Source of the DNA: Escherichia coli phage vB_EcoS_Ace
Length of the DNA stretch: 64,000 bases
Sequence record: MT833283.1
Strand: one strand, 5' to 3'
The translations under genes and the position numbers were made by a program. Below, in pieces: positions 1,770-57,058 of this stretch (its first letter is position 1; every line of letters starts with the position of its first letter). Below the pieces are notes generated by a model. That model was not told where the DNA came from. It was given only the letters and a program-made list of their open reading frames with translations, and did not search any database.

Positions 1770-1775
1770 ATAATT

Positions 1776-2797: not shown

Positions 2798-2804
2798 TAA
2801 AATT

Positions 2805-3297: not shown

Positions 3298-3329
3298 TTT
3301 ATGTAATAATTATACAGAACTTTAAGGAT

Positions 3330-3668: not shown

Positions 3669-3701
3669 GCGCTAATCCATCTCAGCTAAAGGTGCAAATA
3701 T

Positions 3702-3777
3702 TGGCAAACCTACTAGGACTCGAACCTAGACCGTACGGTTTTGGAGACCGACATGCTGTCCAGTAACACTCTAGGAA
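3702..3777 (-). tRNA. tRNA-like, low confidence (anticodon read as CCA, Trp); acceptor pairing poor
   Basis: Good T-arm CTAGG-TTCGAGT-CCTAG and CCA encoded (plus 3702-3704), anticodon arm CGGT-CTCCAAA-ACCG; the 5' acceptor strand has two mismatches in my fold. Confidence 0.45.
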
Positions 3778-3786
3778 TGCAGAAAT

Positions 3787-3860
3787 TGGTATTCTCACAC
3801 GGATTCGAACCGAGATTTCTGGAGTGAAGTTCCAGTGACCTAACCATTAGTCGATGAGAA
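3787..3860 (-). tRNA. tRNA, anticodon read as TTC (Glu)
   Basis: Acceptor GTTCTCA/TGAGAAT, anticodon stem CTGGA/TCCAG perfect with loop ACTTCAC, T-arm CTCGG-TTCGAAT-CCGTG, CCA encoded. Confidence 0.6.
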
Positions 3861-4377
3861 CATTATATTCTTTTGCTTTCTCTAATTTTAGAAAAGACTT
3901 TAATTCTTCTAAGTTAATTATATTAAACCATTCACCTTCTAGTGCAAAAGGTTTAAGAAACTTATGTATTTTTGATTCTACCGCACGTCTATCGGAGTAG
4001 AATTGATAGTGCTCCAGAGTAAAATCTCTGTAAGGACTATATGTTTGATATGACCTCAGTCTTTCATGGACATTTACTGTCATACCTATTTTGTAACAAT
4101 TAGGCCATGCTTTATTGCCAATAACATATACCATACCTTCATACACAGGTAATTTATGCGCTTGTTTATACTGAATAAGATTTAAAGCAGAAATTCTATC
4201 ATACTGCATTATTCTTTTAGTATTCTTCTTTTCAGTACAAGTACCTTTTATCTCATTATAGATTTCTCGATATTTAGCAAGTAAATCTACATCAATAACA
4301 AAAGGTATAGTAGGAGAGATAATATCTCTTTCCTCCATAGCGCTAATTACTATTTTTGGTATATCTGGTATTGCCAT
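3847..4377 (-). CDS. GIY-YIG-like (T5orf172/MUG113-type) domain protein, paralog of 59-700
   Basis: 176 aa; shared core GMVYVIGNKAWPNCYKIGMTVNVHERLRSYQTYSPYRD with the 59-700 ORF. Confidence 0.7.
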   Translation of the reverse strand: MAIPDIPKIVISAMEERDIISPTIPFVIDVDLLAKYREIYNEIKGTCTEKKNTKRIMQYDRISALNLIQYKQAHKLPVYEGMVYVIGNKAWPNCYKIGMTVNVHERLRSYQTYSPYRDFTLEHYQFYSDRRAVESKIHKFLKPFALEGEWFNIINLEELKSFLKLEKAKEYNVLID

Positions 4378-4397
4378 TTTTAGACCTTAGTTAAATT

Positions 4398-4485
4398 TGG
4401 TGGGCGTTAATGGAGTCGAACCACTCGAGTCGCAATGACCAGGGATTTACAATCCCCTCCGCTACCACTTACGGAATAAACGCCC
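4398..4485 (-). tRNA. tRNA-Tyr (GTA), type II with long variable arm
   Basis: Acceptor GGGCGTT/AACGCCC, D-arm TCCG/CGGA, anticodon stem GGGGA/TCCCT with loop TTGTAAA, about 15-nt variable arm, T-arm AGTGG-TTCGACT-CCATT, CCA encoded; 88 nt. Confidence 0.75.
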
Positions 4486-4616
4486 ATATTTAGAAGTATT
4501 CAAAAAATTCTCATTTAAACACTTTTAAATATGTTTCCAAATTAGATAACTATTATATCAAGTTTTATGGCACTGAGCAAGTCAGATTTTAAAGAACTTG
4601 CTCAGTGCTGTATTAG

Positions 4617-4892
4617 TTAGTCGAACTTAGGAGTGACAGTTAAGGAGAACGGAAGTTCAAAAACTTCTTCACCCTCATCACTAACAGTGATTACCCGACC
4701 CTCTAACTTATTCATGCTAATCTCAACATCAGCCGTAGCATCTGGAGCCATGCCAGCTTCAACACATTTAGCTTTAATTTCCGGCAGAAGTTCTACATCA
4801 TAGAAATAAAGCCATTCAATCTCACCTTCCCAGCCTTCCCAGGATTTACAGATTGCACTTTCAATACCAGTTGTTATAACACGATTTTGCAT
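4617..4892 (-). CDS. hypothetical protein
   Basis: 91 aa ORF; strong hairpin (4570-4610) just downstream on the minus strand. Confidence 0.5.
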   Translation of the reverse strand: MQNRVITTGIESAICKSWEGWEGEIEWLYFYDVELLPEIKAKCVEAGMAPDATADVEISMNKLEGRVITVSDEGEEVFELPFSLTVTPKFD

Positions 4893-4982
4893 TCGTTAAC
4901 TCCTTCATCAATTTATATAACTATTATAACAGAAATCTTAAGTAAAAAGCAAGTACATTTTTAAAATTTCTGCTTGGAGGAG

Positions 4983-5255
4983 TTAAACTCCTGATTCTTC
5001 AGCCAGATCAAGCCCAACCAACGTGATTGCCATAATAGCCGCGCCATGTTCCTTCTCTCCTAGCTCTTTAGCTTGAGTGAGAATATTGAGGAATTGCTTT
5101 TGAAAATCTGTAACTTCTTCTGTCATGCCTGCTTCAGCAATAATTCCTTTCAGCATAAAGCGTTGTGCCGTAATTTCAGGATTAGCCATTTGTTTTCTCC
5201 AGTTATTTAGAATGTAAGCCAAACTTAGGATCATAGCGATCATAAGTCGTACCAT
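4983..5255 (-). CDS. hypothetical protein
   Basis: 90 aa ORF. Confidence 0.5.
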   Translation of the reverse strand: MVRLMIAMILSLAYILNNWRKQMANPEITAQRFMLKGIIAEAGMTEEVTDFQKQFLNILTQAKELGEKEHGAAIMAITLVGLDLAEESGV

Positions 5256-5341
5256 TAGTTGAAGCCTTGATGCTATGAAAACGACAGTACATAAATTTAC
5301 GTAGTGCTTTATTAATAGCTTTCATTTTATTTCCTTTTATT

Positions 5342-5418
5342 TGGTAGGGGTGGTGGGATTCGAACCCACAAAACCTGAATTTTAAGTCCAGTACCTATGC
5401 CAATTCGATTACACCCCC
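5342..5418 (-). tRNA. tRNA, anticodon read as TAA (Leu) with short variable arm
   Basis: Acceptor GGGGGTG/CACCCCT, anticodon stem CTGGA/TTCAG with loop CTTAAAA, T-arm GTGGG-TTCGAAT-CCCAC, CCA encoded. Confidence 0.6.
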
Positions 5419-5426
5419 ATGTAATC

Positions 5427-5765
5427 TTAGCGAATCTCTAAACCCTGGAAATATCGAGGGAATGGAGAGCCAACTTCAAAATTAATACCCCAATTAAGTT
5501 CAACGAGTTCAGATTTATTAAGATCCAGACCATTACCTTCAAAGATATAGCCGTAAACCGCAGGGAACATAGCTGCTAGATCTTCCATATCGGAATGAGC
5601 ATTGTGTTCTTCACGAAACTGCTCAAACTCTTCAAAGAACTTTTCTAGGAAGAACTCTGGTACAATGAACGTTACTACATCTGTGGTATCATCAATACGA
5701 TAGATGGTAGCTTGGAATAGACCTACACCTAAAAGGTTGACTGCCGGAGTTGTAAAAATATCCAT
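5427..5765 (-). CDS. hypothetical protein (start moved to internal ATG)
   Basis: The ORF track starts at 5876, but the ATG at 5765 has RBS GAGG and follows the stop of the upstream ORF (TAA-A-ATG), avoiding a 110-nt overlap. Confidence 0.5.
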   Translation of the reverse strand: MDIFTTPAVNLLGVGLFQATIYRIDDTTDVVTFIVPEFFLEKFFEEFEQFREEHNAHSDMEDLAAMFPAVYGYIFEGNGLDLNKSELVELNWGINFEVGSPFPRYFQGLEIR

Positions 5766-5766
5766 T

Positions 5767-5952
5767 TTAGCCTCGCTCAATATCAAAAGAAATTGCATAA
5801 TTAGGGTTAATGCCAGAACCTTTACAGGTAGGACATTCCCATTCGTTATAGAAAATGTCCCCAGGTTCAGCATCATTTTGAGTGCCAGAACCCCAACATT
5901 CAGTACACATACATTCTTCTAGCTCTTGAGCAATTTCTCGAAAGCGTGACAT
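5767..5952 (-). CDS. small zinc-finger-like protein
   Basis: 61 aa with CxxCxGSG...CPTCKGSG motifs; RBS AGGAGA upstream. Confidence 0.55.
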   Translation of the reverse strand: MSRFREIAQELEECMCTECWGSGTQNDAEPGDIFYNEWECPTCKGSGINPNYAISFDIERG

Positions 5953-5969
5953 ATAGTCTCCTAATTAAT

Positions 5970-6047
5970 TGGTGGCTCCCGGAGGATTCGAACCTACCTA
6001 CCTTTCGCTTATGAGGCGACGGCTCATACCAAATGAGCTTGAGAACC
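5970..6047 (-). tRNA. tRNA with CAT anticodon (second copy; Met or Ile2)
   Basis: Acceptor GGTTCTC/GGGAGCC, D-arm GCTC/GAGC, anticodon loop CTCATAA, T-loop TTCGAAT, CCA encoded. Confidence 0.7.
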
Positions 6048-6052
6048 AAATC

Positions 6053-6146
6053 TGGAGGAAGATGCCAGATTCGAACTGGCACACCGTGTTTCCACAGCTA
6101 CTGGCTGTTTAGCAAACAGCTCCCTTACCATTAGGGTTAATCTTCC
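6053..6146 (-). tRNA. tRNA-Ser (GCT), type II
   Basis: Acceptor GGAAGAT/ATCTTCC perfect, anticodon stem GCTGT/ACAGC with loop TTGCTAA, long variable arm, T-arm GCCAG-TTCGAAT-CTGGC, CCA encoded; 94 nt. Confidence 0.8.
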
Positions 6147-6197
6147 GAATTTATGAATATATTATACAGAAAATTTCGACATTAAGCAAGTGAAATT

Positions 6198-6494
6198 TTA
6201 CTGAACCTTGCACTGATATACTTGTTTGATACGTGTCACTGACTTCTTAGTTGGATTGATAGAAGAACCCTGCCACCAACGTGATTCTGAGCTGAGAACA
6301 GTACCAGGAACAGCTTGTTCTTTTGGCAGAACAATATCAAAACACTGTTCACCCATATTATCTTTAATGTGCGACCAAATGTCTAGAGTAAATCGTTCTA
6401 GCTTATTACAAACTTGAACTTGACAAAGTTCCTGTTGTGGAGCAGCAAATACAGAAGTAGATACTAGAGTCAATGCAAGTACAATGCGTTTCAT
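6198..6494 (-). CDS. secreted protein with signal peptide
   Basis: Start at ATG 6494 (MKRIVLALTLVSTSVFA) preceded by the T5-type leader TTTGAGAGAGGAATCAAAT and a promoter at about 6515-6570. Confidence 0.65.
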   Translation of the reverse strand: MKRIVLALTLVSTSVFAAPQQELCQVQVCNKLERFTLDIWSHIKDNMGEQCFDIVLPKEQAVPGTVLSSESRWWQGSSINPTKKSVTRIKQVYQCKVQ

Positions 6495-6600
6495 ATTTGA
6501 TTCCTCTCTCAAATTTATAAATATATTATACAGAAATTTTCTATATTAAGCAAGTGAAAATTTCTGTATAATAGCCCTCGCTTAGAGGGCTATAGCTACT

Positions 6601-7293
6601 TTATTTGTTAACGCGTACAAAGTATCCTTTATATGCCCCAAGAATAGAGTTACCTAAAAATACTAGCCACATTGCTAGGATTGCATAAGATGCACCTGTA
6701 GATTGAGCAGTTACAAGCCAAATGTATACAGTACCAATGTTAATAGCAATCCAGATCAGCCACTGCTCGGCATACTGCTTAACCATAAGCCACATAGCGA
6801 TCACACTACCTACCGCAGTAAATGCATCCAACATTGGGAATGGATCAGCCGTAGTAGTTAAGAAACTACCATACCCTAACGTGGCTACTGCTAGAATCCC
6901 TAGAGTCAGCAGAGCTTGGACTTTAGTCAGAATCTTAGTTGGAACATCTGGCAGATTACTTGGCTTATTTTTATGCCATAAGTACATTCCATAAAACTGC
7001 ATAGGAACGTAGTATAGCAGGTTTAGTGCAGCGTTACCATAAAGATCTTCGTTTAAAGCTGTAATACCATAGGTAAGAACACCAACTAAGCCCCAAATAT
7101 AGTTAGAAACACGTCCTTTAGCAACCAAAATAACACAAACTACGTTGGTTATCGCAGTAGCCCAATCTAGAGGTGTACCATTATAGTTAGCTAAACTAAT
7201 GAAGGCAACCGCTATGAACAGCCACAGATATTCCAGAGGTTTCCAGTTTTTAAAGTCATTTACGAGATAGTTAGTCATATTAAAACTCTCCAA
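6601..7293 (-). CDS. pnuC: nicotinamide riboside transporter PnuC
   Basis: 230 aa multi-pass membrane protein; segments PMLDAF and VIAMWLMVKQYAEQWLIWIAINI match PnuC family signatures as I recall them from E. coli PnuC. Confidence 0.8.
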   Translation of the reverse strand: MESFNMTNYLVNDFKNWKPLEYLWLFIAVAFISLANYNGTPLDWATAITNVVCVILVAKGRVSNYIWGLVGVLTYGITALNEDLYGNAALNLLYYVPMQFYGMYLWHKNKPSNLPDVPTKILTKVQALLTLGILAVATLGYGSFLTTTADPFPMLDAFTAVGSVIAMWLMVKQYAEQWLIWIAINIGTVYIWLVTAQSTGASYAILAMWLVFLGNSILGAYKGYFVRVNK

Positions 7294-7903
7294 CGTTAAA
7301 GTGATGAATCAGCCAGTCTACTGCGTTTACTGCTTCGTCCATACGAACTTTGTAGTCCGGGGAGTCGATGTACACAGTACGCCCTTCAGGGAACTGATTT
7401 GGAAATTCTTTCTTCATCTGCTCGAACAGTTCAGAAGTAATTGAACGATCGGAGTTAATACGTAAACCATCATCTACCCACTTGACAGTGGGCGCTAGAA
7501 CAATTACTAAATCGTAATGTTCTTCTTTTGCAATTGCTGTAACCACAGGGTTCTTACGATGTTCATAAAGTCTGTGGTAGAACTCAGTAATAAAAGCATT
7601 TGTATCCACAAACATGATCTTATTTGCAGTACGTTCTGCCTCAAACTCTAGCTCTTTGTGTCTGAACGCAATTTTACTATAATCTTCGCTGGTAAGCAGA
7701 TTTTCGTTACCAACTAGATCAACTTCACAATACGTTCGACCATATTCTTCTACCCACGAAGTGTTGTATAGCTTCGCAAGGTATTTTGTTAAAGTAGTCT
7801 TTCCTGAGCTTTCAGTCCCAATGATTACAACCCTACGCACGTAATCTTTACGAACTACGCTAGGAAGAAACTCCCAATACTTCATAAGATCATTACGAAT
7901 CAT
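7280..7903 (-). CDS. nadR: NadR-like ribosylnicotinamide kinase domain (downstream part of a nadR-like gene interrupted by an in-frame TAG)
   Basis: Walker A IIGTESSGKTTL; translation of the same frame upstream back to the TAG at 8114-8116 gives ...RVPISATMIRNDL (nucleotidyltransferase ISxTxIR motif) with no further stop. Confidence 0.75.
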   Translation of the reverse strand: MIRNDLMKYWEFLPSVVRKDYVRRVVIIGTESSGKTTLTKYLAKLYNTSWVEEYGRTYCEVDLVGNENLLTSEDYSKIAFRHKELEFEAERTANKIMFVDTNAFITEFYHRLYEHRKNPVVTAIAKEEHYDLVIVLAPTVKWVDDGLRINSDRSITSELFEQMKKEFPNQFPEGRTVYIDSPDYKVRMDEAVNAVDWLIHHFNVGEF

Positions 7904-8113
7904 TGTAGCTGAGATTGGAACACGAGTCCGATCAGAATCTACAATATAATGACCAAACTTCGGCAGATATTTCTTATATTCTGCATCATAGTCTAGTTCG
8001 CTAGAGAAAATGGTGATCTCAGGTAAATGTCCGTAATTTTCATTAAGGATTCTAGCATATTCCGGCCAACCATTCGGATATTCAGGAATATCATCTTCAA
8101 TAATATACTCTAC

Positions 8114-8335
8114 CTAAACGTGCTCAATATCCGCGTAAGTTTGTTCTAACCAACGAAGACGATTCTTTAACTGTAATACTTCCTGATCACGTGTGTTCTG
8201 CTTATCCAGCCAACGATTATCATGACTAACTACAATAATAACTCGTTCACACATAGTTGCTGCTGTATTTATTAGGTTAATATGGCCACGCGTTAAGGGT
8301 GCGAACTTACCAATTACTAGACCAGTCTTAATCAT
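8114..8335 (-). CDS. nadR: NadR-like NMN adenylyltransferase N-terminal fragment, ending at in-frame TAG
   Basis: MIKTGLVIGKFAPLTRGHINL carries the (H/T)xGH nucleotidyltransferase motif; same frame as 7280-7903; start ATG 8335 has RBS AGAGAGG and a T5-type promoter. Confidence 0.7.
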   Translation of the reverse strand: MIKTGLVIGKFAPLTRGHINLINTAATMCERVIIVVSHDNRWLDKQNTRDQEVLQLKNRLRWLEQTYADIEHV

Positions 8336-8365
8336 GTTTGATTCCTCTCTCAAATTTATAAATAT

Positions 8366-8394
8366 ATTATACAGAGAATTTAGCATTCAAGCAA
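8366..8394 (-). promoter_or_regulatory. sigma70-type T5 early promoter (-35 TTGCTT, 17-nt spacer, -10 TATAAT) for nadR
   Basis: rc of 8366-8394 gives TTGCTT-N17-TATAAT followed by leader AAATTTGAGAGAGG. Confidence 0.7.
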
Positions 8395-8547
8395 ACGAAT
8401 TTTTAAACTTTTTAGTGGAAAAATCTCAGGGCATTTAATGGTAGCACGTTGTTGCAGCAACAATAGTATGCGATTCTAAAGAATTAAATACTAAAGACCT
8501 TAGTTGAATAACTTATGGGCTTTTCTTTTGCCTTAAATACAGAAAAG

Positions 8548-8578
8548 CCCGCGCTCTCGGAGGGAACGCGGGCTTGGT
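8548..8578 (-). terminator. rho-independent terminator downstream of the SPFH gene
   Basis: Inverted repeat GCCCGCG...CGCGGGC followed by a T-run on the minus strand. Confidence 0.6.
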
Positions 8579-8598
8579 TCGAAGATTACGTGTAACTA

Positions 8599-9543
8599 TT
8601 ACTTGTTACGCATATCCATGATCATTTGACCATCGTAGCCAGTACCAACAACAGTCTGCGGTACACCACCTTGGTATTTTTCAGCACGAAGCATTTCAAC
8701 TTCCAGCTGCTTCCAACGAATCATTTCAGGAGTAATGGTACGTTGCAGCGCGGCGTTAGCTTCAGCTTCTTTCTTAGCTGCGTACAGTTTAGCATCTGCG
8801 TCACGTTCGTTAGCTACTGCCATGTTTTCACGAGCAGAACGATCAGCTTCAGCTTGCTTAACTTTCTGCTGTGCTTCTTGTTCAACACGAGCCAATTCAG
8901 CTTTTGCAGCGTTAACTTGTTCTTCACGAACTTTAGTGTTCTGTACCTGTTCCATGATTACCGGTGGCAGAGTAATATCCTGAAGGAATACTTGCTTAAC
9001 CGTGTAACCATAAGGACGCGCGTACTCTTCTACCTCTTGCTGAATAGCAGTTTGCAGTTGAGCCTGAATCTTAGCGTCGAACAGATCTTGTGCTTTTGGT
9101 ACGGACTTACCAAACTCACGAATCGTAGACAGCATCTTCTCTTCAACGTACTTGTTCAGAGCTTGATCCTGAGTACCTGCGTTAACACGGTTCATAGGAG
9201 CTTTAGCACCATCAAACTGCAACATAACGGTAATGTCAACAGTAGACTTAAACTTATCCTGGCTAGGAACCTGAAGTTTATCCAGTTTCATGGAAATATC
9301 TTTCGTACTAAAAGTATCAAAAGAAGCAAATGGGTTAACAATATGGAAGCCTGGCAGTACAGGGTTCGGGCTAACTTTACCCAGGAAGGTCTGAGTCTTT
9401 ACAGTACCATCCTGAACAACTGTGTAGGAATTGAGAGCCAGAATAAGAGCACCAAGACCAACTACAGCACCAACACCCCAACGTTTAATAGTACGAATTA
9501 CTTTTTGCTCAGAAGTCAGTTCTTTAGTGTTTTTAGTAAACAT
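8599..9543 (-). CDS. SPFH/band-7 (stomatin/prohibitin/HflK-like) membrane protein
   Basis: 314 aa; N-terminal TM helix (WGVGAVVGLGALILAL), SPFH-like core, long charged coiled-coil C-terminus (EQVNAAKAELARVEQEAQQK...). Confidence 0.65.
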   Translation of the reverse strand: MFTKNTKELTSEQKVIRTIKRWGVGAVVGLGALILALNSYTVVQDGTVKTQTFLGKVSPNPVLPGFHIVNPFASFDTFSTKDISMKLDKLQVPSQDKFKSTVDITVMLQFDGAKAPMNRVNAGTQDQALNKYVEEKMLSTIREFGKSVPKAQDLFDAKIQAQLQTAIQQEVEEYARPYGYTVKQVFLQDITLPPVIMEQVQNTKVREEQVNAAKAELARVEQEAQQKVKQAEADRSARENMAVANERDADAKLYAAKKEAEANAALQRTITPEMIRWKQLEVEMLRAEKYQGGVPQTVVGTGYDGQMIMDMRNK

Positions 9544-9554
9544 ATATTTCCTTA

Positions 9555-9755
9555 TTATTTAGAAGAGTTAGCTACTACAGTTACTTTAGTTGCAGAAATA
9601 AACAGGCCAGCATCCACAGCAAATTCAGGAGCTTTGATATCTCCATTATGAAATATGACTATACCGGAGATTACCTCAAATGCTAGTGCTGTAACATCGG
9701 TGGTATTTACTTGTGAATGTTCACCTACTACTTTTACTATATATCGTGTTTTCAT
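9555..9755 (-). CDS. hypothetical protein
   Basis: 66 aa ORF immediately downstream of the SPFH gene. Confidence 0.45.
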   Translation of the reverse strand: MKTRYIVKVVGEHSQVNTTDVTALAFEVISGIVIFHNGDIKAPEFAVDAGLFISATKVTVVANSSK

Positions 9756-9781
9756 TTTATTTTCCTAACAGTTAATAAAAT

Positions 9782-9856
9782 TGGCCGAGGTGACAGGATT
9801 TGAACCTGCATAAAGGAATTTAGAAGACTCCTGCCTATCCCTTAGACTACACCCCG
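9782..9856 (-). tRNA. tRNA-Arg (TCT)
   Basis: Acceptor CGGGGTG/CACCTCG, anticodon stem GGAGT/ATTCC with loop CTTCTAA, T-arm GCAGG-TTCAAAT-CCTGT, CCA encoded. Confidence 0.75.
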
Positions 9857-9864
9857 AAAGTTAA

Positions 9865-10374
9865 TCATTTAATGACTTTATTCAATTTAGTTTGACTTTC
9901 AACAGCTTCTTTAGCAGATTTCTCAGCATTTTTAGCTGCACGTTGTGCTTTAGAGTCAATCAATAGCTTGTCATACTTGATATTAACGAACTCTTTAATA
10001 TCGTGGTAGAAACGTTGATGTGCCATGTATTCTTGTGCATCTGCGTCATAACAGCGCATATAGAAGTAATCACTAGGCTCTCCGCGAAGTGTACTCTCTA
10101 GAATCTGCGGGCGATAACGACGTAATGTATCTTTCGCCATTTTTACTTCATCAGTTTCTTCACCAAGCTGAACTAGGTGATAAAGACGAGTATTGTCGAT
10201 GTAATCCAAAGCTACGCTAAAGTATTCACCTTCTCGAAGATTATATCCTGTAATCTCACTCATTTTCTCGCGAGCTTGATCAAGTGTCAATCGTTCAGAG
10301 AAATGTGCTATATGCAGAATACGAGGGCAACACATTTCTTGAAGATCAAAGATACAAGTTGTTCCTAGATTCAT
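9865..10374 (-). CDS. hypothetical protein
   Basis: 169 aa ORF; RBS AAGGA upstream; lies at the 3' end of the ORF-free transcribed block. Confidence 0.55.
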   Translation of the reverse strand: MNLGTTCIFDLQEMCCPRILHIAHFSERLTLDQAREKMSEITGYNLREGEYFSVALDYIDNTRLYHLVQLGEETDEVKMAKDTLRRYRPQILESTLRGEPSDYFYMRCYDADAQEYMAHQRFYHDIKEFVNIKYDKLLIDSKAQRAAKNAEKSAKEAVESQTKLNKVIK

Positions 10375-11247
10375 ATTGATTCCTTTTGTTAGGTATTTTT
10401 AAGAACTCTCGAAAAAGCTCTTAAAGATACCCGGCGGTAGGTAGGGTCAGCCCCCTCAGATTAAGCTCTGCAGCCCTTCCGTCAGACAATATCCTCCAGT
10501 TTAAGTCAGGGTGACTTTGTGGTTATGTTCTCCGTATGTGAAGAACTCGGTTAGGCTTAGGTCATGACTCCCAGCCTACTGCTGCCACTCAACAGGAATT
10601 ATCGCGAATTACCTGTACTATTGGGCACCATTAGTGACATCTCTCATGCCAGCATTTCCCACTCTCATATTCACGCGGTCTGGTAGAATCACACCTCCGA
10701 TTTTCGATGCGAAGCTGGATGCCTAGTCTCTATGTTAAACGGGGCACACACTAGGCAGTGATCCCGAGTTCCGAGTTTGGTTGAGGCCGTCAGGTTTCCT
10801 CGTGGTTTAGCTGTTTCGATTCTAACCTAATACTGATCAGGCGGCGTACCTCCTGAACCGTCATAGTATGTACTCCAGCAGCGAATGCTTATCCGGTATA
10901 AGCCCGAGTTATCCGATTCTTTCCGACCGCAGGATTCGAACCTGCATCTTCCACCAGTTACGGTTTAATATTACCGTTTATACTAGGACGGCAGTGTTAT
11001 CACATAAGTCAGTTCGACACCCCACTAACATAAACTAGAGAAGAGTTTACGAGATTTCGGGACAGCTCCCGTGTTTTCCGCAGATTTTCAGTTCCCTATC
11101 AATAGCAATAAGCGTTAGCTCGTAGCCTCTCTCAGAGTACTTACTAGTCTCCAACTCACCGACTCTATTCAGTGGAATAGCTATCCTAGTAGGAATCACT
11201 AAACTCACTCAGCGTAATCGGCTCGCTGTTCTCTACTTTATGAATTT
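10375..11247 (-). ncRNA. candidate long structured non-coding RNA or very long leader (ORF-free, GC-elevated, promoter-driven)
   Basis: About 870 nt with no ORF of 60 aa or more in the track; visibly more GC-rich than flanking DNA; strong T5-type promoter at 11248-11276 reads into it; contains canonical T-arm GCAGG-TTCGAAT-CCTGC (plus 10928-10944) without a foldable tRNA body. Confidence 0.4.
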
Positions 11248-51053: not shown

Positions 51054-51496
51054 TTAAAATTAAACTAACTCATCCAGATTGCATGCCGAAGATTGGTTCT
51101 GATGATGCCGCAGGTATGGATCTGCGTGCATTCTTTGGTACTAACCTTGCAGCAGATTTACGTGCTATTGCACCAGGCAAATCCCTTATGATCGACACCG
51201 GTGTCGCGGTGGAAATTCCGCGAGGTTGGTTTGGTCTGGTAGTTCCTCGCAGCTCTTTAGGTAAGCGTAAACTAATGATCGCAAATACCGCAGGAGTGAT
51301 CGACTCAGACTACCGTGGTACTATTAAGATGAACCTGTTTAACTACGGTTCTGAAATGCAAACTCTGGAGAATTTCGAGAGACTTTGTCAGCTAGTAGTA
51401 CTACCACACTACTCAACTCATCATTTTGAAATCGTTGACGAACTAGAGGAGACTGATCGTGGAGAAGGCGGCTTTGGAAGCTCAGGAAGTAAATAA
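51050..51496 (+). CDS. dut: dUTPase
   Basis: 148 aa; dUTPase motifs AGMDLRA, GVIDSDYRG, C-terminal RGEGGFGSSG. Confidence 0.85.
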   Translation: MIKIKLTHPDCMPKIGSDDAAGMDLRAFFGTNLAADLRAIAPGKSLMIDTGVAVEIPRGWFGLVVPRSSLGKRKLMIANTAGVIDSDYRGTIKMNLFNYGSEMQTLENFERLCQLVVLPHYSTHHFEIVDELEETDRGEGGFGSSGSK

Positions 51497-51722
51497 TTAT
51501 TCAGATCTTAATATGGTAGGTAATTTTGAGCAGTCAAATACTTATCATGTAGCAGTTGCTGAACCTAATCTGAATAACGTGGTTCTTAAAGTAGACCGTG
51601 AAGGTAATGTAATCCATTGGGATGAAGACGCTTTTGTCGAATTGTGTAGTAAGTCTGAAGATCCTACACTCAGAGCTATGTTAGCAGTATTTAATTTAGG
51701 TGTTATTGCCGGAAGTAGATAA
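51459..51722 (+). CDS. hypothetical protein (start uncertain)
   Basis: 87 aa ORF overlapping the dut 3' end; last plus-strand ORF before the terminator. Confidence 0.4.
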   Translation: MEKAALEAQEVNNYSDLNMVGNFEQSNTYHVAVAEPNLNNVVLKVDREGNVIHWDEDAFVELCSKSEDPTLRAMLAVFNLGVIAGSR

Positions 51723-51726: not shown

Positions 51727-51757
51727 AAACCCCAGTGGACAATCCACTGGGGTTTTC
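51727..51757. terminator. bidirectional rho-independent terminator at the early/late strand switch
   Basis: Perfect hairpin AAACCCCAGTGG-ACAA-TCCACTGGGGTTTT with T/A runs on both sides, between convergent gene blocks. Confidence 0.7.
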
Positions 51758-51759: not shown

Positions 51760-53526
51760 TTACTTAGTGAGTAGTTGTTTTACTAATTCCTTGAGTTCAT
51801 CAATTTCTTGCCTCTGTTGCTCAACAATCCCATTAAGTTCGTTAACAGCGCTAACTAGAAGAGCAGAAACACCACCATAACTAACACCAAGATAACCGTC
51901 TTGGCTTACTTGGTATACAGCTTCAGGTAATACTTTCTGGAGATCCTGAGCAATAATACCTGCTTCCATAGAATAATCTTTGCTTTCAGGGTCATCAATA
52001 TTAGTTCGTTTCTGGTAAGTATAGCCGCATAACAGCTTAACCTTACTTAGAGAATCTTCGATCTTAGTAAGATTAGACTTAGTTCTAATATCAGAAACGT
52101 TAATCCAGTTAGATGCTCTAGCTCCCCCATCACTATGGAAATAGAATCTGGAAGCACCTGTCATTATATCCAGTTCAGAAGTGCCATCCCCCCATAGGAT
52201 ACCATCAACGTTACAAGCGTATCCCTTTCCAGGAATAGTTACTTTGGCAATACCTACAGCTACATCAGTAGTGTTACCATCTACGCTAACAGCTACAGGC
52301 CTATAAGACCAACTAGATAGAGCACCCCCATTAATTTTACAACCATAACCATACGACCAATCCCCTCCTTTATAGTCAGGCAGGTATACTGAGTCGAAAA
52401 TTACTTGCTGACGTGTGCCAAGAGATAAGTTATTACGGGCAGTATTAACATCTGTACCTCCTGTACCTCCCGAAGCAATAGGTAGAGGTTTTCTAATAGC
52501 AGCAGACTTATCGTAGACACCCCAATCTCCTGCAGCATATACAAAGAAATAGGTATCTTTATCCGGAGCCCAAAGCATTGATTGTTCCCCCGCTCTATCT
52601 ACCTGGTCTACTAAGAGATTCTCTCTTGCCTTAGCCACTGTAGTAGCTCCTGTCCCTCCATTTGTAATAGGAACGGTAGACTGACCGTTAAATTGTTTTT
52701 GCCACGGCAACCAGTTACCAGTACCGTTTAGTATAGTAAGCCATGAGCTTCCAGATTTTCCTACCGCCTTCAATATACCGTATTGGGCGAAGCCATCAAT
52801 ATCTGTACTATGACAGTGAAAATTAAAAGTCCACCAATCCTCGTCTACTGGAGGACCAAAGGTAATTAGGTTACCTGAAGAGTAGTAACCACTTTGCCCG
52901 GTAGCACCAATAAAACCAAGAACATTACTGTTAGGAGGAATAGGTACAGCAGTAGCCCCTACAGGAACATCTAGATTTTTTCTTGCTGTTTTAGCATCAG
53001 AAGCCCCTGTTCCACCGAACTGCACTTTCATGGCCTGGACGGCAGCGGTAGAACTATTGATTAATCCAAAGTCTCCGCTATTATAAACGAATAAAGAATA
53101 TTTTCCATCAGGAGACGTAATAAAGGTACCATTATCCTGCTGTCTTAAACGATCTATTTGTAAAGCTGTTTTTGCCTCTAATAAGGTGCTAGCACCTGTA
53201 CCACCCTGAGCAATAGTAATAGCCTTAGTCAGTGCGTTTAATTCTGTAATATCGTTATTAGCACCTTTTGCCGCCTTCGTACCTAGGTTAGTGTTAATAC
53301 CGCCAATAGCAGTATTGATATTACCTATTGATTCGTTAATACTATTAATATATGCGTCAGTAGCAGTCTTATCAGTAGTATATTTTGTAAGCTGTAGATA
53401 TTTAGAGGTTAGTACAACAGCACCAGCCTCCCCATCAACAGAGAAAACACCAGCAACCGCCGCATCTCTGTTAACAACAACATAGGGGGCCATAGCCCCA
53501 CTTTTTGGCATTAATTGTCTAGACAT
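51760..53526 (-). CDS. tail fibre protein with C-terminal intramolecular chaperone (S74-type) domain, LtfB-like
   Basis: 588 aa; repeated GGTGAS/GGTGAT motifs; C-terminal SDIRTKSN...GIIAQDLQKVLPEAV plus terminal coiled coil. Confidence 0.7.
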   Translation of the reverse strand: MSRQLMPKSGAMAPYVVVNRDAAVAGVFSVDGEAGAVVLTSKYLQLTKYTTDKTATDAYINSINESIGNINTAIGGINTNLGTKAAKGANNDITELNALTKAITIAQGGTGASTLLEAKTALQIDRLRQQDNGTFITSPDGKYSLFVYNSGDFGLINSSTAAVQAMKVQFGGTGASDAKTARKNLDVPVGATAVPIPPNSNVLGFIGATGQSGYYSSGNLITFGPPVDEDWWTFNFHCHSTDIDGFAQYGILKAVGKSGSSWLTILNGTGNWLPWQKQFNGQSTVPITNGGTGATTVAKARENLLVDQVDRAGEQSMLWAPDKDTYFFVYAAGDWGVYDKSAAIRKPLPIASGGTGGTDVNTARNNLSLGTRQQVIFDSVYLPDYKGGDWSYGYGCKINGGALSSWSYRPVAVSVDGNTTDVAVGIAKVTIPGKGYACNVDGILWGDGTSELDIMTGASRFYFHSDGGARASNWINVSDIRTKSNLTKIEDSLSKVKLLCGYTYQKRTNIDDPESKDYSMEAGIIAQDLQKVLPEAVYQVSQDGYLGVSYGGVSALLVSAVNELNGIVEQQRQEIDELKELVKQLLTK

Positions 53527-53573
53527 TTTATTACCTTTATAGGGGCTTTCATAAGCCCCCTATTATACTTTTT

Positions 53574-56500
53574 TTATACTGGAGTTAAGGCAGCTACAAC
53601 TTGTTTGAGTTGTTCTAACTCTTGTTCTAAAGTATTCATTTTATTACCCATGTACACCATAGCACAAGCCATATCCGTTAGAATAACGTTACTATCAAGA
53701 GCAAGTGTGTCATCAGCTCTATCGGTTTCAATTTGACGATCCACATATTCGTTACCATCCGTGTCAACTCCAATTACGTCTTCAAAAACTGGAGAGCCAG
53801 GTACGATTTTTACATATTGAAGATCTATTTTTGCAAGATCCTGGGCTATAAGACCATAACGTTGAGTATCGCCCCACTTATATTTAAACATAGTAGGCAA
53901 CCACTGCATAACACGGTCATAACTTTCCTTTCCATCTGTGTAAATAATTTCTTTCTTTAAGTCACGGTCTGAAGTTGGGTTTTTTGCAAAATCATAACCA
54001 ACTCCCCACATATCCCCGGGCGCGTTTGCCCATGTTCCTAAACTACCATCTACGTTAAATTCAAATCCTCTATGTTTATCGTTATCACCTAGCAGCTTGA
54101 GTATTGTCCTGGACCATCCAGCGGCGCCCGGGGACAACATACCAATTGCGAAACGTATGTTATAACCGTTTGGAGTTGAAGTGCCTCCCGCGACTACCGG
54201 ACTGAATGATGCGTTATTGTTAGTTGTACTCACTGAATTGAATGGAATTCCATTACCACTATCGTACTGCTCAATACCCCAACCATGAATGTTACCCACA
54301 GTGCCAGCATTAAATGCACGCGCTTTATGGTAGCCTGTTGGATAGAAATCAAAGTCCGCCACATCAATACTAGGACTATAAACTCTTAAACGATGACATT
54401 TAATCTTGTCTGAACCAGATCTAACAGCACCGGATATTGACATATCATTATACCAGTTATACCTAGTAAAGTTAGCCCAATCATCCAAAGGAACACTAGC
54501 CCCGGCATAAAGCTCAAGATTGTTTCGCTCACCTCCTTCCATTGTAAAAGCGTAGTTAGCACCAATTTTTATTTTCTGAGCACTAAATTGACCATTTTCG
54601 TCAAACTGGTAGAAGGCTGTTTTATCGGTGGTTGAGTTTGTAGTCCTTATTGTTGTTTTCGCTACACCAGATTGAAGTTCGTTGTAAATAGAGGAATAAG
54701 AAATTAAGTTTCTAGAAGCATCGTGATTCCTCATATATAACAGACCAGAATTGAATCCATTATATAAGCTAGCAGCAACTTCGGCAAAGCTAGGTGTATT
54801 AGTTTCTCCTAATTCTATGTTAGCCCTTGCACCTGCTGCATTCGTCGCCCCTGTACCTCCATTATTAATAGCTAGAATTCCCTGGGTATCATTATTTAAA
54901 TCAGGCTTATTTGCTGAACCGTATAGAATATTAGTATGGATAGTAGGATTTTCACTATCTAATTGATTATCATTTATAGTCCCGACAAAAACAATACCAC
55001 TAGAGTATTGGGGGCAAATAAATGAGTGAGTATCTGCAGTTTTAGAGTAAAATCCTGCAGAATACGCCGGTAGCCCACCTATTCCTATGTCGTTTCTATA
55101 GTAGCCAGAACCAAAAGCTCTCATAGCTTTAAAAAGAGATACTAAATCAGGCTCGTTTAAAGTGAGTCCTGCACCACCTAAGCCAAAAGCACCACGAAGT
55201 AAAACCTCACCATTAATGCCATCCCAAACATTCTTAGTAACAACGTTACCTAGAGAAATATTACCACTCTCGTCTGGGCGAATAGTTCCGTTAACCATTG
55301 CTACATAAGGAAGTTTAATAGCTCCGGTATCATCAGCAGGACCAATTCCATTCACAGTAGTGATATAAGGAATCTGTTCCTTAATAGCACCGCCGTCTTC
55401 TTCTCCCTTAGTAGGTGCACGAAAAGCCTGCCCTTGCATCATATCTGGTAGGCGGAATGTGGTAGAACCGTCACCAGTGGAGAAGTAGAGAGTTGCACCG
55501 GCTTGCCATTCAGCTTCTGAAACAGAAGGAATTAGACCAGCTTCGATGGCTTCCCAAGTATCAGGATAGTCAACACGAAGTACTTCACGGCCATCAGCAG
55601 GTAGAACACCAGGGTAACCAACACCTGAATCCTTGTTATAAGGGAACCAAGTAACTTCACCCAACCATAGAGAAGGGTTACCACCCGGAAGTGTAATCTG
55701 TACGTTACCTGCATCATCTGCATGAACGTTGTTGATTGATACGAGTTTTTGCTCGGTTTCTACTAACTCTAGGACAGGAGCTTCAGCAGTACCAGCAACT
55801 TTATACCAACCGTACTTTGAATCAGTTTGATTCCAGACTAGAACCTTTTCGTCTAGAACACGGTTTGCAACATCAGCATCAGCTTCTGCTTTCGTCTTAT
55901 AAACTTTGATAAAACCAGAAATATCTACTTTATCAAGTTTACCATCAACAACCTGAGTAGCACGATCTGCCTCAGCTTTAGCACGATCTGCCTCAGTAGT
56001 AGCATCGATAGCTTTATCGCCAGCTTCAGTAGCAGAACCAGCAGCATTAGTTTCAGAAATCTTAGCGTTTAGTTCTGATTGCTTAGCAGCAGCAGCATGC
56101 TCACCAGCAGTTGTTGCAGCAGCATCGGCTCCTTCTTTAGCAGTTTCTGCACCAGTTTGTGCAGTTTCAGCGGCTACTTGAGCTTGTTGAGCAGCAGTTT
56201 TAGCTTGTTCGGCTAGTTCTCTACTTCTTTCAGCATTTTGAGCAGCTAACTGAGCCGCATCTTTGTGTGTGCCGGCTTCTGTAGCAGATGCAGCGGATTC
56301 TTCAGCGCTAGCCTTAGATAATCCAGCTTGTCTCTCAGATTCCGTAGCAGAAGTAGCTGCTTGAGTAGCAGAAGCTTCAGAAGAATCAGCGTAAATAGCA
56401 GCTCTATTTTCTGAGTCTCTAGCGTTAGTTTCAGATAATTTTGCTGCAATTTCAGAATCTTTTGCTGCCGCAGCAGAAGCAGCAGAGGCTTCTACAGCAG

Positions 56501-56636
56501 CAGTTAATTCACCAGCAGTAATAGAACTAATAGAATTACCTAAAACTACTGTATATTTAGGATACTTACTAGCAGTAGTTGTAGTGTCATCTATGTTCAG
56601 AATCTGCTGTACAATAATTTTAGTTTTAAGTGCCAT
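53574..56636 (-). CDS. ltf: L-shaped tail fibre protein (pb1/LtfA-like) with C-terminal intramolecular chaperone domain
   Basis: 1020 aa; Ala-rich coiled-coil N-region, C-terminal SDRDLKKEI...GLIAQDLAKIDLQYV plus terminal coiled coil. Confidence 0.7.
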   Translation of the reverse strand: MALKTKIIVQQILNIDDTTTTASKYPKYTVVLGNSISSITAGELTAAVEASAASAAAAKDSEIAAKLSETNARDSENRAAIYADSSEASATQAATSATESERQAGLSKASAEESAASATEAGTHKDAAQLAAQNAERSRELAEQAKTAAQQAQVAAETAQTGAETAKEGADAAATTAGEHAAAAKQSELNAKISETNAAGSATEAGDKAIDATTEADRAKAEADRATQVVDGKLDKVDISGFIKVYKTKAEADADVANRVLDEKVLVWNQTDSKYGWYKVAGTAEAPVLELVETEQKLVSINNVHADDAGNVQITLPGGNPSLWLGEVTWFPYNKDSGVGYPGVLPADGREVLRVDYPDTWEAIEAGLIPSVSEAEWQAGATLYFSTGDGSTTFRLPDMMQGQAFRAPTKGEEDGGAIKEQIPYITTVNGIGPADDTGAIKLPYVAMVNGTIRPDESGNISLGNVVTKNVWDGINGEVLLRGAFGLGGAGLTLNEPDLVSLFKAMRAFGSGYYRNDIGIGGLPAYSAGFYSKTADTHSFICPQYSSGIVFVGTINDNQLDSENPTIHTNILYGSANKPDLNNDTQGILAINNGGTGATNAAGARANIELGETNTPSFAEVAASLYNGFNSGLLYMRNHDASRNLISYSSIYNELQSGVAKTTIRTTNSTTDKTAFYQFDENGQFSAQKIKIGANYAFTMEGGERNNLELYAGASVPLDDWANFTRYNWYNDMSISGAVRSGSDKIKCHRLRVYSPSIDVADFDFYPTGYHKARAFNAGTVGNIHGWGIEQYDSGNGIPFNSVSTTNNNASFSPVVAGGTSTPNGYNIRFAIGMLSPGAAGWSRTILKLLGDNDKHRGFEFNVDGSLGTWANAPGDMWGVGYDFAKNPTSDRDLKKEIIYTDGKESYDRVMQWLPTMFKYKWGDTQRYGLIAQDLAKIDLQYVKIVPGSPVFEDVIGVDTDGNEYVDRQIETDRADDTLALDSNVILTDMACAMVYMGNKMNTLEQELEQLKQVVAALTPV

Positions 56637-57058
56637 TATTGAGTTACTCCATCGCTGATGTATACTTTACCTTCCATAATACGGAAAGAACTGACTTCAG
56701 AGCCAATTACATCACGAGTCATTAGGATATCATAATAACCAGCAAAACGTTGTCTTGGGTTATACTTATCACGTTCTTTAGATGCTTTTTCACCAATATT
56801 AGTAACGTCTGCAACGGAAAGACTAATTGCAGCAGCACCTTGAGCAGCATCAATAACACGAGTTTTAAAGTTAGCTAGAACCTCGGCGTTCTCATCTAAA
56901 CTAGATTTAATAGTTCCTCGGAGTGAATACCCCGTCAAGTTAACAGGAACTTCTGTTGGTGGATATACACTATCATCAACATCCATAAATTGCATGATAA
57001 GACCATAAGGTACTTTTTCATCAACAACAATATCAATAACTCGGTTTTCTGTACTCAT
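56636..57058 (-). CDS. tail collar protein (T5 p132-like), tentative
   Basis: 140 aa ORF between the pb4-like and fibre genes; assignment by size and synteny with T5 only. Confidence 0.45.

What the first reader, a model, noticed from the sequence alone, without database searches (positions are those of the whole stretch)
51760..56636. Two consecutive tail-fibre genes, each with its own C-terminal intramolecular chaperone domain
Both the 1020-aa and the 588-aa late proteins end in the self-cleaving chaperone signature (SD(R/I)xxK...G(L/I)IAQDL...) followed by a coiled coil. T5 itself has a single L-shaped fibre gene (pb1). Two such genes suggest branched lateral fibres with two receptor-binding specificities, as described for some T5-like phages, and mark the most likely host-range determinant in the window.
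Basis: partly seen in the sequence, partly recalled or inferred. Interest (0 to 1): 0.55.

Follow-up and report, generated by a model that had tools for sequence, protein, structure and literature searches.

The report
T5-like phage branched tail fibre genes
These two genes are ltfA and ltfB, the well-known two-protein side fibre of many T5-like phages; each fibre protein ends in a self-cleaving folding domain, so the finding is correct but ordinary.

Summary
Two minus-strand ORFs sit exactly where stated: 53574-56636 (1020 aa) and 51760-53526 (588 aa). They lie at the end of a T5-type late tail operon: pb3, pb4, ltfC, ltfA, ltfB, then a bidirectional terminator.

Both proteins pass Pfam's curated threshold for Peptidase_S74. 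Both carry a Ser-x4-Lys pair that is invariant across homologues (S889/K894 and S478/K483), and both end in a long predicted helix.

LtfA residues 1-442 are about 93% identical to LtfA of phage DT57C (PDB 8HQZ). LtfB residues 1-45 are nearly identical to DT57C LtfB. LtfC is 95% identical to its DT57C counterpart.

The LtfA module 232-442 and the LtfB N-terminal peptide occur in almost the same set of phage records, 241 against 235. T5 pb1 has neither element, and T5 has only one fibre gene.

The two ORFs are not one split gene. [quoted passage not shown] The closest complete genome, IrmaTschudi, has a nonsense codon in ltfA.

The distal receptor-binding parts are uncharacterised alleles, so which receptors they bind remains unknown. 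This architecture is already described, so interest is low.

The parts
56636..57058 (-). ltfC, the collar protein that anchors the lateral fibres (140 aa). Its stop codon overlaps the ltfA start codon by 1 nt.
   Evidence: Pfam LtfC PF23926, E=1.9e-15. It is 95% identical to DT57C LtfC. The overlap was read from the sequence.
53574..56636 (-). ltfA, the proximal and main lateral tail fibre protein (1020 aa, 108.8 kDa; predicted mature form 1-888, 93.7 kDa).
55947..56636 (-). LtfA aa 1-230: N-terminal strands that insert into the collar, followed by an Ala/Glu/Thr/Ser-rich trimeric coiled-coil shaft.
   Evidence: It is 49% identical to T5 pb1 1-215 and lies within the ~93%-identical stretch shared with DT57C LtfA, PDB 8HQZ. 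The role of this region in DT57C is described in PMC10713586.
55311..55943 (-). LtfA aa 232-442: the proposed docking module for LtfB. T5 pb1 has no counterpart. It is related to SU10 gp12 and phiEco32 gp14 of Kuraviruses.
   Evidence: It matches SU10 gp12 (7Z47_D) residues 248-461, E=1.5e-41. pb1 has no aligned counterpart. It is found full-length in 241 phage records.
53973..54839 (-). LtfA aa 600-888: the distal, presumed receptor-binding region (beta-rich).
   Evidence: It is unrelated to the DT57C LtfA distal part. It is 98% identical in Salmonella phages EH1 and EH7. The LtfA C-terminal half (aa 443-1020) that contains it is 40-50% identical to lateral fibres of ~50-60 kb siphophages. 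AF2 predicts beta-sandwich-like strands with pLDDT 70-89.
53577..53972 (-). LtfA aa 889-1020: the S74 intramolecular chaperone (132 aa). The predicted cleavage site is T888|S889.
   Evidence: By analogy with the Thr1263|Ser1264 cleavage in T5 pb1 (PMC4690869).
53541..53560 (-). GC-rich stem-loop in the 47-nt ltfA-ltfB spacer. It is not followed by a U-tract. The ltfB ribosome-binding site lies downstream of it.
   Evidence: RNAfold gives -13.8 kcal/mol. A hairpin sits at the same position in IrmaTschudi, EscoHU1 and DT57C.
51760..53526 (-). ltfB, the second (branch) lateral tail fibre protein (588 aa, 62.5 kDa; predicted mature form 1-477, 50.2 kDa).
53389..53526 (-). LtfB aa 1-46: the conserved N-terminal peptide proposed to attach LtfB to LtfA.
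   Evidence: It is nearly identical to DT57C LtfB and 71-76% identical to Kuravirus fibre N-termini, including phiEco32 and SU10. It is found in 235 records.
52966..53220 (-). LtfB aa 103-187: first copy of an internally duplicated module flanked by GGTG motifs.
   Evidence: It is 35% identical over 85 aa to residues 285-369, E=1e-19. AF2 gives both copies the same secondary-structure pattern.
52420..52674 (-). LtfB aa 285-369: second copy of the duplicated module.
52096..52419 (-). LtfB aa 370-477: the distal tip, presumed to bind a receptor.
   Evidence: It is divergent between alleles. Residues ~398-477 together with the chaperone resemble T-even gp37 tips.
51763..52095 (-). LtfB aa 478-588: the S74 intramolecular chaperone (111 aa). 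The predicted cleavage site is V477|S478.
51727..51755 (.). Bidirectional intrinsic terminator that ends the late tail operon and the convergent early operon.
   Evidence: A 13-bp stem is followed by T-runs on both strands, with a folding energy of -22.8 kcal/mol. T5 has an annotated 'efficient bidirectional rho-independent terminator' at the same position.

Best explanation
The region encodes LtfA and LtfB, the two proteins of the branched L-shaped lateral tail fibre of an Epseptimavirus (a T5-like phage). The phage is vB_EcoS_Ace or a near-identical isolate.

Proposed mechanism, with the basis marked for each step:
1. ltfC, ltfA and ltfB are transcribed as the end of the late tail operon. 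Gene order and the terminator are shown; co-transcription is inferred.
2. Each protein trimerises and folds from its C-terminus, guided by its own S74 intramolecular chaperone. Once the trimer is correctly folded, a Ser/Lys pair cuts the chain at T888|S889 in LtfA and at V477|S478 in LtfB. This releases chaperones of 132 aa and 111 aa and exposes the distal tip. The domain and the catalytic residues are shown; cleavage is inferred from T5 pb1 and K1F endosialidase.
3. The LtfA N-terminus threads into the LtfC collar around the tail tip, and a long coiled coil projects outwards. This is inferred from about 93% identity to the solved DT57C structure.
4. The first ~45 residues of the LtfB trimer dock onto the LtfA module at residues 232-442. 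Each of the three fibres would then fork into two arms with unrelated tips. This is inferred from homology, from co-occurrence of the two elements, and from DT57C genetics.
5. The two tips bind two different surface glycans, most likely O-antigens, reversibly. This would let the phage cross the O-antigen layer to reach its terminal receptor, which is bound by pb5 encoded outside the window. This step is inferred, and the ligands are unknown.
For: - The ORFs and the synteny pb3-pb4-ltfC-ltfA-ltfB-terminator match IrmaTschudi, EscoHU1 (annotated 'L-shaped tail fiber protein A/B'), DT57C and, apart from its single fibre gene, T5.
- LtfA 1-442 matches DT57C LtfA (PDB 8HQZ) with E=1.3e-236 at about 93% identity. 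LtfC is 95% identical to DT57C LtfC. LtfB 1-45 is nearly identical to DT57C LtfB, and identity is 55% over the first ~200 aa.
- LtfA 232-442 matches SU10 gp12, and T5 pb1 has no counterpart of this stretch.
- The docking module and the LtfB N-terminal peptide occur in 241 and 235 records respectively, with matching breakdowns by genus name. Both are found in T5-likes and in Kuraviruses.
- S74 domains exceed Pfam's threshold in both proteins, and the Ser/Lys pair is invariant.
- The distal parts of LtfA and LtfB are unrelated to each other.
- Literature: DT57C genetics and the branched model (PMC4728585); the LtfA-LtfC structure (PMC10713586); pb1 chaperone cleavage (PMC4690869); the O157:H7 host of phage Ace (PMC9512901).
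Against: - No structure of an LtfA-LtfB junction exists. LtfB was not resolved in the DT57C cryo-EM map (PMC10713586).
- In SU10 the homologous pair gp12/gp13 is described as the proximal and distal halves of one kinked fibre, not as a fork (PMC9509320).
- Cleavage, trimerisation and ligand binding were not, and could not be, tested here.
- AF2 monomer models of the distal regions are of modest quality (pLDDT 71 and 60). The LtfA half gave no significant structural match, and LtfB gave only weak, low-TM matches to tail fibres (R-pyocin and Mu), so the receptor-binding fold is unresolved.
- Neither distal allele is associated with O157 hosts in the phage database.
Confidence: 0.88

Rival explanations
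1. LtfA and LtfB are two independent fibres. Each would attach to the tail by itself, with no branching.
For: LtfB has never been seen attached to LtfA at high resolution. The DT57C map shows only weak densities near the tail tip that were tentatively assigned to LtfB (PMC10713586).
Against: - The LtfB N-terminus has no similarity to the pb1/LtfA N-terminus that inserts into the LtfC collar.
- It co-occurs almost one-to-one with the LtfA 232-442 module, in two unrelated phage groups.
- In DT571/2, an ltfA amber mutant (S23am) loses infection of the LtfB-dependent host (PMC4728585).
Confidence: 0.06
2. LtfB extends LtfA end to end, like SU10 gp12/gp13 (proximal plus distal halves of one kinked fibre), so there is only one functional tip.
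For: SU10 gp12 and gp13, which carry the homologous modules, are described as the proximal and distal proteins of one fibre with an elbow (PMC9509320).
Against: LtfA continues for about 450 residues beyond the docking module. That stretch has its own variable distal region and its own chaperone with an intact Ser/Lys pair. In DT57C and DT571/2, swapping the LtfA C-terminal region changes host specificity (PMC4728585), so the LtfA tip is functional.
Confidence: 0.04
3. The two ORFs are one fibre gene split by a sequencing frameshift or a mutation.
For: Split fibre genes do occur in this group. The closest relative, IrmaTschudi, has ltfA cut in two by a nonsense codon.
Against: - LtfA ends with a complete S74 domain and a C-terminal helix before its stop codon.
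- A 47-nt spacer with a hairpin and a ribosome-binding site precedes the ltfB ATG.
- The LtfB N-terminus is conserved as a protein start in 235 records.
- An identical two-gene arrangement is present in an independent assembly, with 0 mismatches over 5699 nt.
Confidence: 0.01

Closest known systems
LtfA/LtfB branched L-shaped tail fibres of phages DT57C and DT571/2 (Golomidova et al. 2016, PMC4728585; Ayala et al. 2023, PMC10713586; PDB 8HQZ)
   Same: - The gene order ltfC-ltfA-ltfB is the same.
- LtfC is 95% identical.
- LtfA 1-442 is about 93% identical.
- The LtfB N-terminal ~45 aa are nearly identical.
- Both proteins end in S74 chaperones.
   Different: - The distal halves are unrelated. 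DT57C LtfA (1076 aa) and LtfB (788 aa) carry tail-collar-like repeats and other tips.
- Here LtfA (1020 aa) has an EH1/EH7-type tip. LtfB (588 aa) has a duplicated module flanked by GGTG motifs and a tip like that of T-even gp37.
- The genus differs: Epseptimavirus here, Tequintavirus for DT57C.
- The ligands (O22-like, O87 and O81 for the DT phages) cannot be transferred to this phage.
T5 pb1 (Ltf), the single L-shaped tail fibre with an intramolecular chaperone (PMC4690869; PDB 4UW7/4UW8)
   Same: - It occupies the same genomic position.
- The N-terminal collar-binding and coiled-coil region is homologous (49% over 230 aa), as is a second segment (LtfA 479-578 against pb1 386-487, 40%).
- The C-terminal chaperone has the same Ser-x4-Lys pair, and in LtfA the same Thr|Ser junction.
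   Different: - T5 has one fibre gene of 1396 aa.
- pb1 lacks the 232-442 docking module.
- Its bullet-shaped polymannose-binding tip has no detectable similarity to either distal region here.
Kuravirus long tail fibre pair: SU10 gp12/gp13 and phiEco32 gp14/gp15 (PMC9509320; PDB 7Z47)
   Same: LtfA 232-442 is about 44-46% identical to gp12 248-461. LtfB 1-45 is about 71-76% identical to the N-terminus of the next fibre gene. The two elements sit in adjacent genes in both phage groups.
   Different: These are podoviruses, and their fibres attach to the adaptor rather than to an LtfC collar. The rest of the proteins are unrelated. SU10 describes the pair as the proximal and distal parts of one fibre.
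[quoted passage not shown]
   Same: - IrmaTschudi is 98.2% identical over 24.5 kb of the window and 97.1% over the fibre locus. Its LtfB is 99.7% identical.
- The window's LtfB is 100% identical to the Ace tail fibre protein.
- The locus is identical to one carried by a contig of run ERR7888522.
   Different: - IrmaTschudi carries GAA->TAA at ltfA codon 680, so it is annotated as two CDSs. The window's ltfA is intact.
- 122 of the 144 nucleotide differences in ltfA fall within codons ~401-600.

Membership tests
DT57C-type LtfA/LtfB branched lateral tail fibre (T5-like phages) | Two adjacent large fibre genes lie directly downstream of ltfC at the end of the late tail operon. | tested here: met
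   The order is pb3, pb4, ltfC, ltfA, ltfB, terminator. The order is the same in DT57C and EscoHU1.
DT57C-type LtfA/LtfB branched lateral tail fibre (T5-like phages) | The LtfA N-terminus is homologous to the T5 pb1 / DT57C LtfA region that inserts into the collar, and an LtfC collar protein is present. | tested here: met
   LtfA 1-442 is about 93% identical to 8HQZ chain d. LtfA 1-230 is 49% identical to pb1. LtfC matches Pfam PF23926 and is 95% identical to DT57C LtfC.
DT57C-type LtfA/LtfB branched lateral tail fibre (T5-like phages) | LtfA carries an internal module related to phiEco32 gp14 / SU10 gp12 (the proposed docking site). | tested here: met
   LtfA 232-442 matches 7Z47_D 248-461 with E=1.5e-41. 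Kuravirus hits are 44-46% identical. The module is absent from T5 pb1.
DT57C-type LtfA/LtfB branched lateral tail fibre (T5-like phages) | The N-terminal ~45 aa of LtfB are related to phiEco32 gp15 and DT57C LtfB. | tested here: met
   Near-identity to DT57C LtfB over residues 1-45. Identity to phiEco32, SU10 and other Kuraviruses is 71-76%.
DT57C-type LtfA/LtfB branched lateral tail fibre (T5-like phages) | LtfB is physically attached to the virion through LtfA (the branch). | not testable with these tools
   Only indirect support is available: co-occurrence in 241 against 235 records, and DT57C genetics (PMC4728585).
DT57C-type LtfA/LtfB branched lateral tail fibre (T5-like phages) | The two proteins recognise different primary receptors. 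| not testable with these tools
   The distal regions share no similarity and have different nearest relatives. The ligands are unknown.
Peptidase_S74 / C-terminal intramolecular chaperone (K1F endosialidase, T5 pb1, GA-1 gp12, MyRF ICA) | A Pfam PF13884 match above the gathering score, located at the C-terminus. | tested here: met
   LtfA scores 27.8 bits and LtfB 47.3 bits against a cut-off of 22.
Peptidase_S74 / C-terminal intramolecular chaperone (K1F endosialidase, T5 pb1, GA-1 gp12, MyRF ICA) | A catalytic Ser with a Lys five residues downstream (Ser1264/Lys1269 in pb1). | tested here: met
   S889/K894 and S478/K483. Both pairs are invariant in alignments of 39 and 32 homologues. The pb1 reference is PMC4690869.
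Peptidase_S74 / C-terminal intramolecular chaperone (K1F endosialidase, T5 pb1, GA-1 gp12, MyRF ICA) | A fold like solved chaperone domains, including a C-terminal helix able to form the central trimeric coiled coil. | tested here: met
Peptidase_S74 / C-terminal intramolecular chaperone (K1F endosialidase, T5 pb1, GA-1 gp12, MyRF ICA) | Autoproteolytic release of the domain after the trimer has folded. | not testable with these tools
   This needs protein chemistry. The predicted products are 93.7 + 15.1 kDa for LtfA and 50.2 + 12.4 kDa for LtfB.
T5 pb1-type receptor-binding tip (bullet-shaped polymannose binder) | Sequence similarity to pb1 residues 970-1263. | tested here: not met
   There is no alignment to pb1 beyond pb1 residue 487. 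The PDB sequence searches gave no hit to 4UW7/4UW8.
Tailspike depolymerase (enzymatic receptor-binding protein) | A beta-helix or glycosidase/lyase catalytic domain. | tested here: inconclusive
   Pfam detects no catalytic domain. The AF2 models show beta-sandwich-like domains and no long beta-helix. The only structural matches are weak ones to tailspikes, and model confidence is modest.

The most novel reading that the evidence does not exclude
The most novel reading not excluded is that this allele pair gives the phage its reported O157:H7 specificity. One tip would bind the O157 O-antigen. The duplicated module of LtfB, flanked by GGTG motifs (aa 103-187 and 285-369), would add a further lateral glycan-binding or docking surface. 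The fibre would then carry more than two specificities. The natural ltfA nonsense mutant IrmaTschudi would be a ready-made fibre-less control.
Probability: 0.15. Interest if true: 0.35.

Novelty: already known. Interest (0 to 1): 0.15.

Why it matters
Lateral fibres decide which O-antigen types a T5-like phage can get past, so they matter for choosing and engineering phages for biocontrol. Phage Ace is being studied against E. coli O157:H7. Identifying the two genes as ltfA/ltfB, with predicted cleavage sites and module boundaries, gives clean units for swapping or mutating. It adds no new biology, however. The two-gene branched fibre was described in 2016. The elements that define it are present in about 150 T5-like records of the phage collection searched, and close relatives are already annotated as LtfA/LtfB.

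Tried and rejected

2. A PDB sequence search with the LtfA chaperone alone found only DT57C LtfA (E=0.0013). It did not find pb1 or the endosialidase.

3. A link between either distal allele and O157 hosts. The nearest relatives of both tips are mostly Salmonella phages or phages isolated on K-12, so there is no host signal.

4. The original characterisation of phage Ace (PMC8492476) is not held in the library. Host-range statements therefore come second-hand from PMC9512901.

5. The idea that LtfA and LtfB arose by a recent duplication is rejected. Apart from the GGTG motifs and weak S74 similarity, they do not align.

6. The idea that a gp38-like adhesin follows ltfB, prompted by its T-even gp37-like tip, is rejected. 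The terminator follows immediately, and the next ORF lies on the opposite strand in the early operon.

7. The sigma-70 promoter scan gave 18 sites against 14.7 expected, which is not informative.
Full report
**What is there.**
- Two minus-strand ORFs lie exactly at the stated coordinates: 53574-56636 (1020 aa) and 51760-53526 (588 aa).
- Upstream on the same strand are a 140-aa ORF that matches Pfam LtfC, the pb4 straight-fibre gene (four PB4 domains, E down to 1e-198) and the pb3 hub gene.
- Downstream of the 588-aa ORF is a 13-bp-stem bidirectional terminator at 51727-51755. It separates this late operon from the convergent early genes dut, flap endonuclease and D14.
- T5 has an annotated bidirectional terminator at the same position.

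**Origin of the window.**
- The window is a T5-like phage of the genus Epseptimavirus.
- Positions 39500-64000 are 98.2% identical to Escherichia phage IrmaTschudi of the BASEL collection, and the fibre locus is 97.1% identical to it.
- The 588-aa protein is 100% identical to 'tail fiber protein [Escherichia coli phage vB_EcoS_Ace]'.
- 5699 nt spanning ltfC-ltfA-ltfB are identical, with 0 mismatches, to a contig assembled from run ERR7888522.
- Phage Ace is reported to be highly specific for E. coli O157:H7 and to infect some Citrobacter freundii and Shigella sonnei strains as well (PMC9512901).

**Check of the observation.**
- Both proteins match Pfam PF13884 (Peptidase_S74, 'chaperone of endosialidase') above the curated cut-off of 22 bits. 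LtfA 889-937 scores 27.8 bits (E=3.1e-6) and LtfB 478-538 scores 47.3 bits (E=2.6e-12). Each match starts at profile position 1, on a Ser.
- In an alignment of 32 LtfB-type proteins, S478, K483 and G523 are invariant. In 39 homologues of the LtfA C-terminal half, the equivalents of S889, D890, R891, D892 and K894 are invariant.
- AlphaFold2 places a long terminal helix in each protein, LtfB 550-587 and LtfA 982-1017.
- In T5 pb1 the Thr1263-Ser1264 bond is cut, Lys1269 activates the Ser, and the 133-aa chaperone has a central trimeric coiled coil (PMC4690869).
- By analogy, the cuts here are predicted at T888|S889 and V477|S478. The mature proteins would be 93.7 and 50.2 kDa, and the released domains 132 and 111 aa. 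The cleavage itself is inferred.

**Why this is LtfA/LtfB.**
Golomidova et al. defined the DT57C-type fibre by five features (PMC4728585):
- two fibre genes after ltfC;
- an LtfA N-terminus like that of T5 pb1;
- an internal LtfA region like phiEco32 gp14;
- an LtfB N-terminal 45 aa like phiEco32 gp15;
- an S74 domain on each protein.

All five are met here:
- LtfA 1-442 aligns to DT57C LtfA (PDB 8HQZ chain d) at about 93% identity, E=1.3e-236.
- LtfC is 95% identical to DT57C LtfC.
- LtfA 1-230 is 49% identical to T5 pb1 1-215.
- LtfA 232-442 aligns to SU10 gp12 residues 248-461 (7Z47_D, E=1.5e-41). It has no counterpart in pb1, which resumes similarity only at LtfA 479-578.
- LtfB 1-45 is nearly identical to DT57C LtfB and 71-76% identical to the N-terminus of the second fibre gene of Kuraviruses, including phiEco32 and SU10.
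- The DT57C and T5 records show the same gene order, with two and one fibre genes respectively.

**A test of the docking idea.**
- If the LtfB N-terminal peptide docks on the LtfA 232-442 module, the two should be inherited together.
- Against 50,697 phage records, the module is found full-length in 241 records and the 46-aa peptide in 235 records.
- The breakdowns by first word of the organism name are nearly the same: Escherichia 113 and 111, Salmonella 95 and 91, Shigella 5 and 5, Klebsiella 3 and 3.
- About 150 and 147 records match at 80% identity or more (T5-likes). Most of the remaining full-length matches are in ~77-kb Kuraviruses, where the two elements lie in adjacent genes.
- The extra partial hits to the module (Burkholderia, Yersinia) cover only a ~55-75-aa subdomain.
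- I could compare counts but not the exact intersection of the two record sets.
- This supports a functional pair. It also shows that the two-gene fibre is common and not unusual.

**Not a split gene.**
- LtfA ends in a complete chaperone domain and a TAA stop.
- A 47-nt spacer with a GC-rich hairpin and an AAGG ribosome-binding site precedes the ltfB ATG.
- Outside the short GGTG motifs and weak S74 similarity, the two proteins do not align.

**Module make-up.**
LtfA is a mosaic of five parts:
- a pb1-like collar and coiled-coil part (aa 1-230);
- the Kuravirus-like docking module (aa 232-442);
- a second pb1-like segment (aa 479-578);
- a distal beta-rich region (aa ~600-888). It is 98% identical in Salmonella phages EH1 and EH7 and 84-89% identical in S114/S133, EscoHU1 and LVR16A. 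The C-terminal half that contains it (aa 443-1020) is 40-50% identical to lateral fibres of ~50-kb and ~60-kb siphophages;
- the chaperone domain.

LtfB also has five parts:
- the docking peptide;
- a helical stretch;
- two copies of an 85-aa module bounded by GGTG motifs (aa 103-187 and 285-369; 35% identity, E=1e-19);
- a globular insert between the two copies;
- a tip plus chaperone that resembles those of some T-even gp37 proteins (S16 gp37, 6F45, E=3e-11; PHROG 5667).

The full-length LtfB allele is rare in the phage collection. Besides IrmaTschudi (99.7%) it is found in JNwz02 (89%), KKP 3953 (82%) and TrudiGerster (82%).

**What could not be settled.**
- The folds and ligands of the two tips remain unknown. 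The AF2 monomer models are of modest quality. For the tips, Foldseek gave only weak fibre-like hits for LtfB and nothing significant for LtfA.
- Neither tip's relatives point to O157 hosts.
- The physical branch rests on homology, on co-occurrence and on DT57C genetics. LtfB was not resolved in the DT57C map (PMC10713586). SU10 describes its homologous pair as one kinked fibre (PMC9509320).

**Side finding.**
- IrmaTschudi's ltfA is annotated as two CDSs because codon 680 is TAA there and GAA here.
- The truncated protein would lack the distal region and the chaperone. By analogy with DT57C, that phage is probably fibre-less, which is tolerated on its O-antigen-less K-12 isolation host.
- 122 of the 144 nucleotide differences between the two ltfA genes fall within codons ~401-600, which suggests a recombination patch.

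**Verdict.**
The feature is an already described kind of system, in a phage whose genes are already deposited and annotated as tail fibre proteins. Only the receptor specificities of these particular alleles are unknown.

Noticed in passing
L001 (IrmaTschudi MZ501076) 7875-10937, equivalent to window 53574-56636, codon 680: The closest relative has a GAA->TAA nonsense codon at ltfA codon 680, so its ltfA is annotated as two CDSs (679 aa and 322 aa). The window's gene is intact. The truncation removes the distal region and the chaperone, so it probably leaves that K-12-isolated phage without working lateral fibres.
   Followed up: yes
window ~54837-55436 (ltfA codons ~401-600): 122 of the 144 nucleotide differences between the window's ltfA and IrmaTschudi's are packed into this stretch. 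ltfB differs by only 2 nt. This looks like a recombination patch inside the fibre shaft.
   Followed up: partly
window 53541-53560 (ltfA-ltfB spacer): A GC-rich hairpin (-13.8 kcal/mol) with no U-tract sits between ltfA and ltfB, preceded by a perfect TATAAT. A hairpin of different sequence lies at the same place in EscoHU1 and DT57C. It may stabilise the mRNA or tune the LtfA:LtfB ratio.
   Followed up: partly
window 51763-53526 (LtfB aa 103-187 and 285-369; GGTG at 108, 171, 290, 353): LtfB contains an internal duplication of an 85-aa module bounded by GGTGA-type motifs. One such motif is also in LtfA (aa 593), and similar ones occur in SU10 gp12 and other fibres. The role of the motif is not known to me.
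   Followed up: partly
window 51763-52335 (LtfB aa ~398-588): The LtfB tip plus chaperone is more similar to the distal ends of some T-even gp37 long tail fibres (S16 gp37, PDB 6F45; Lw1) and to LtfA-type C-termini of other T5-likes (PHROG 5481) than to DT57C LtfB. This points to module exchange across phage families and between the two fibre genes.
   Followed up: partly
whole window; L004 (Logan ERR7888522 contig): [quoted passage not shown] LtfB is 100% identical, and 5699 nt of the locus are identical to a contig of run ERR7888522.
   Followed up: yes
database records seen: Records labelled 'Campylobacter phage A148', 'Corynebacterium phage CPphiVTCCBPA_418' and a 'Brucella melitensis' protein carry T5-like LtfA sequences (97.6% identity over the aa 232-442 module in A148; 67% and 85% in the other two). 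They are probably contaminant or mislabelled entries.
   Followed up: no
window 722-9856 (- strand): A cluster of 14 tRNA genes, typical of T5-like genomes.
   Followed up: no
window 51459-51722 (+): An 87-aa ORF (PHROG 5592; DUF7369 on the identical contig) overlaps the end of dut and ends just before the bidirectional terminator. It is conserved in T5 (T5.132) and has no known function.
   Followed up: no
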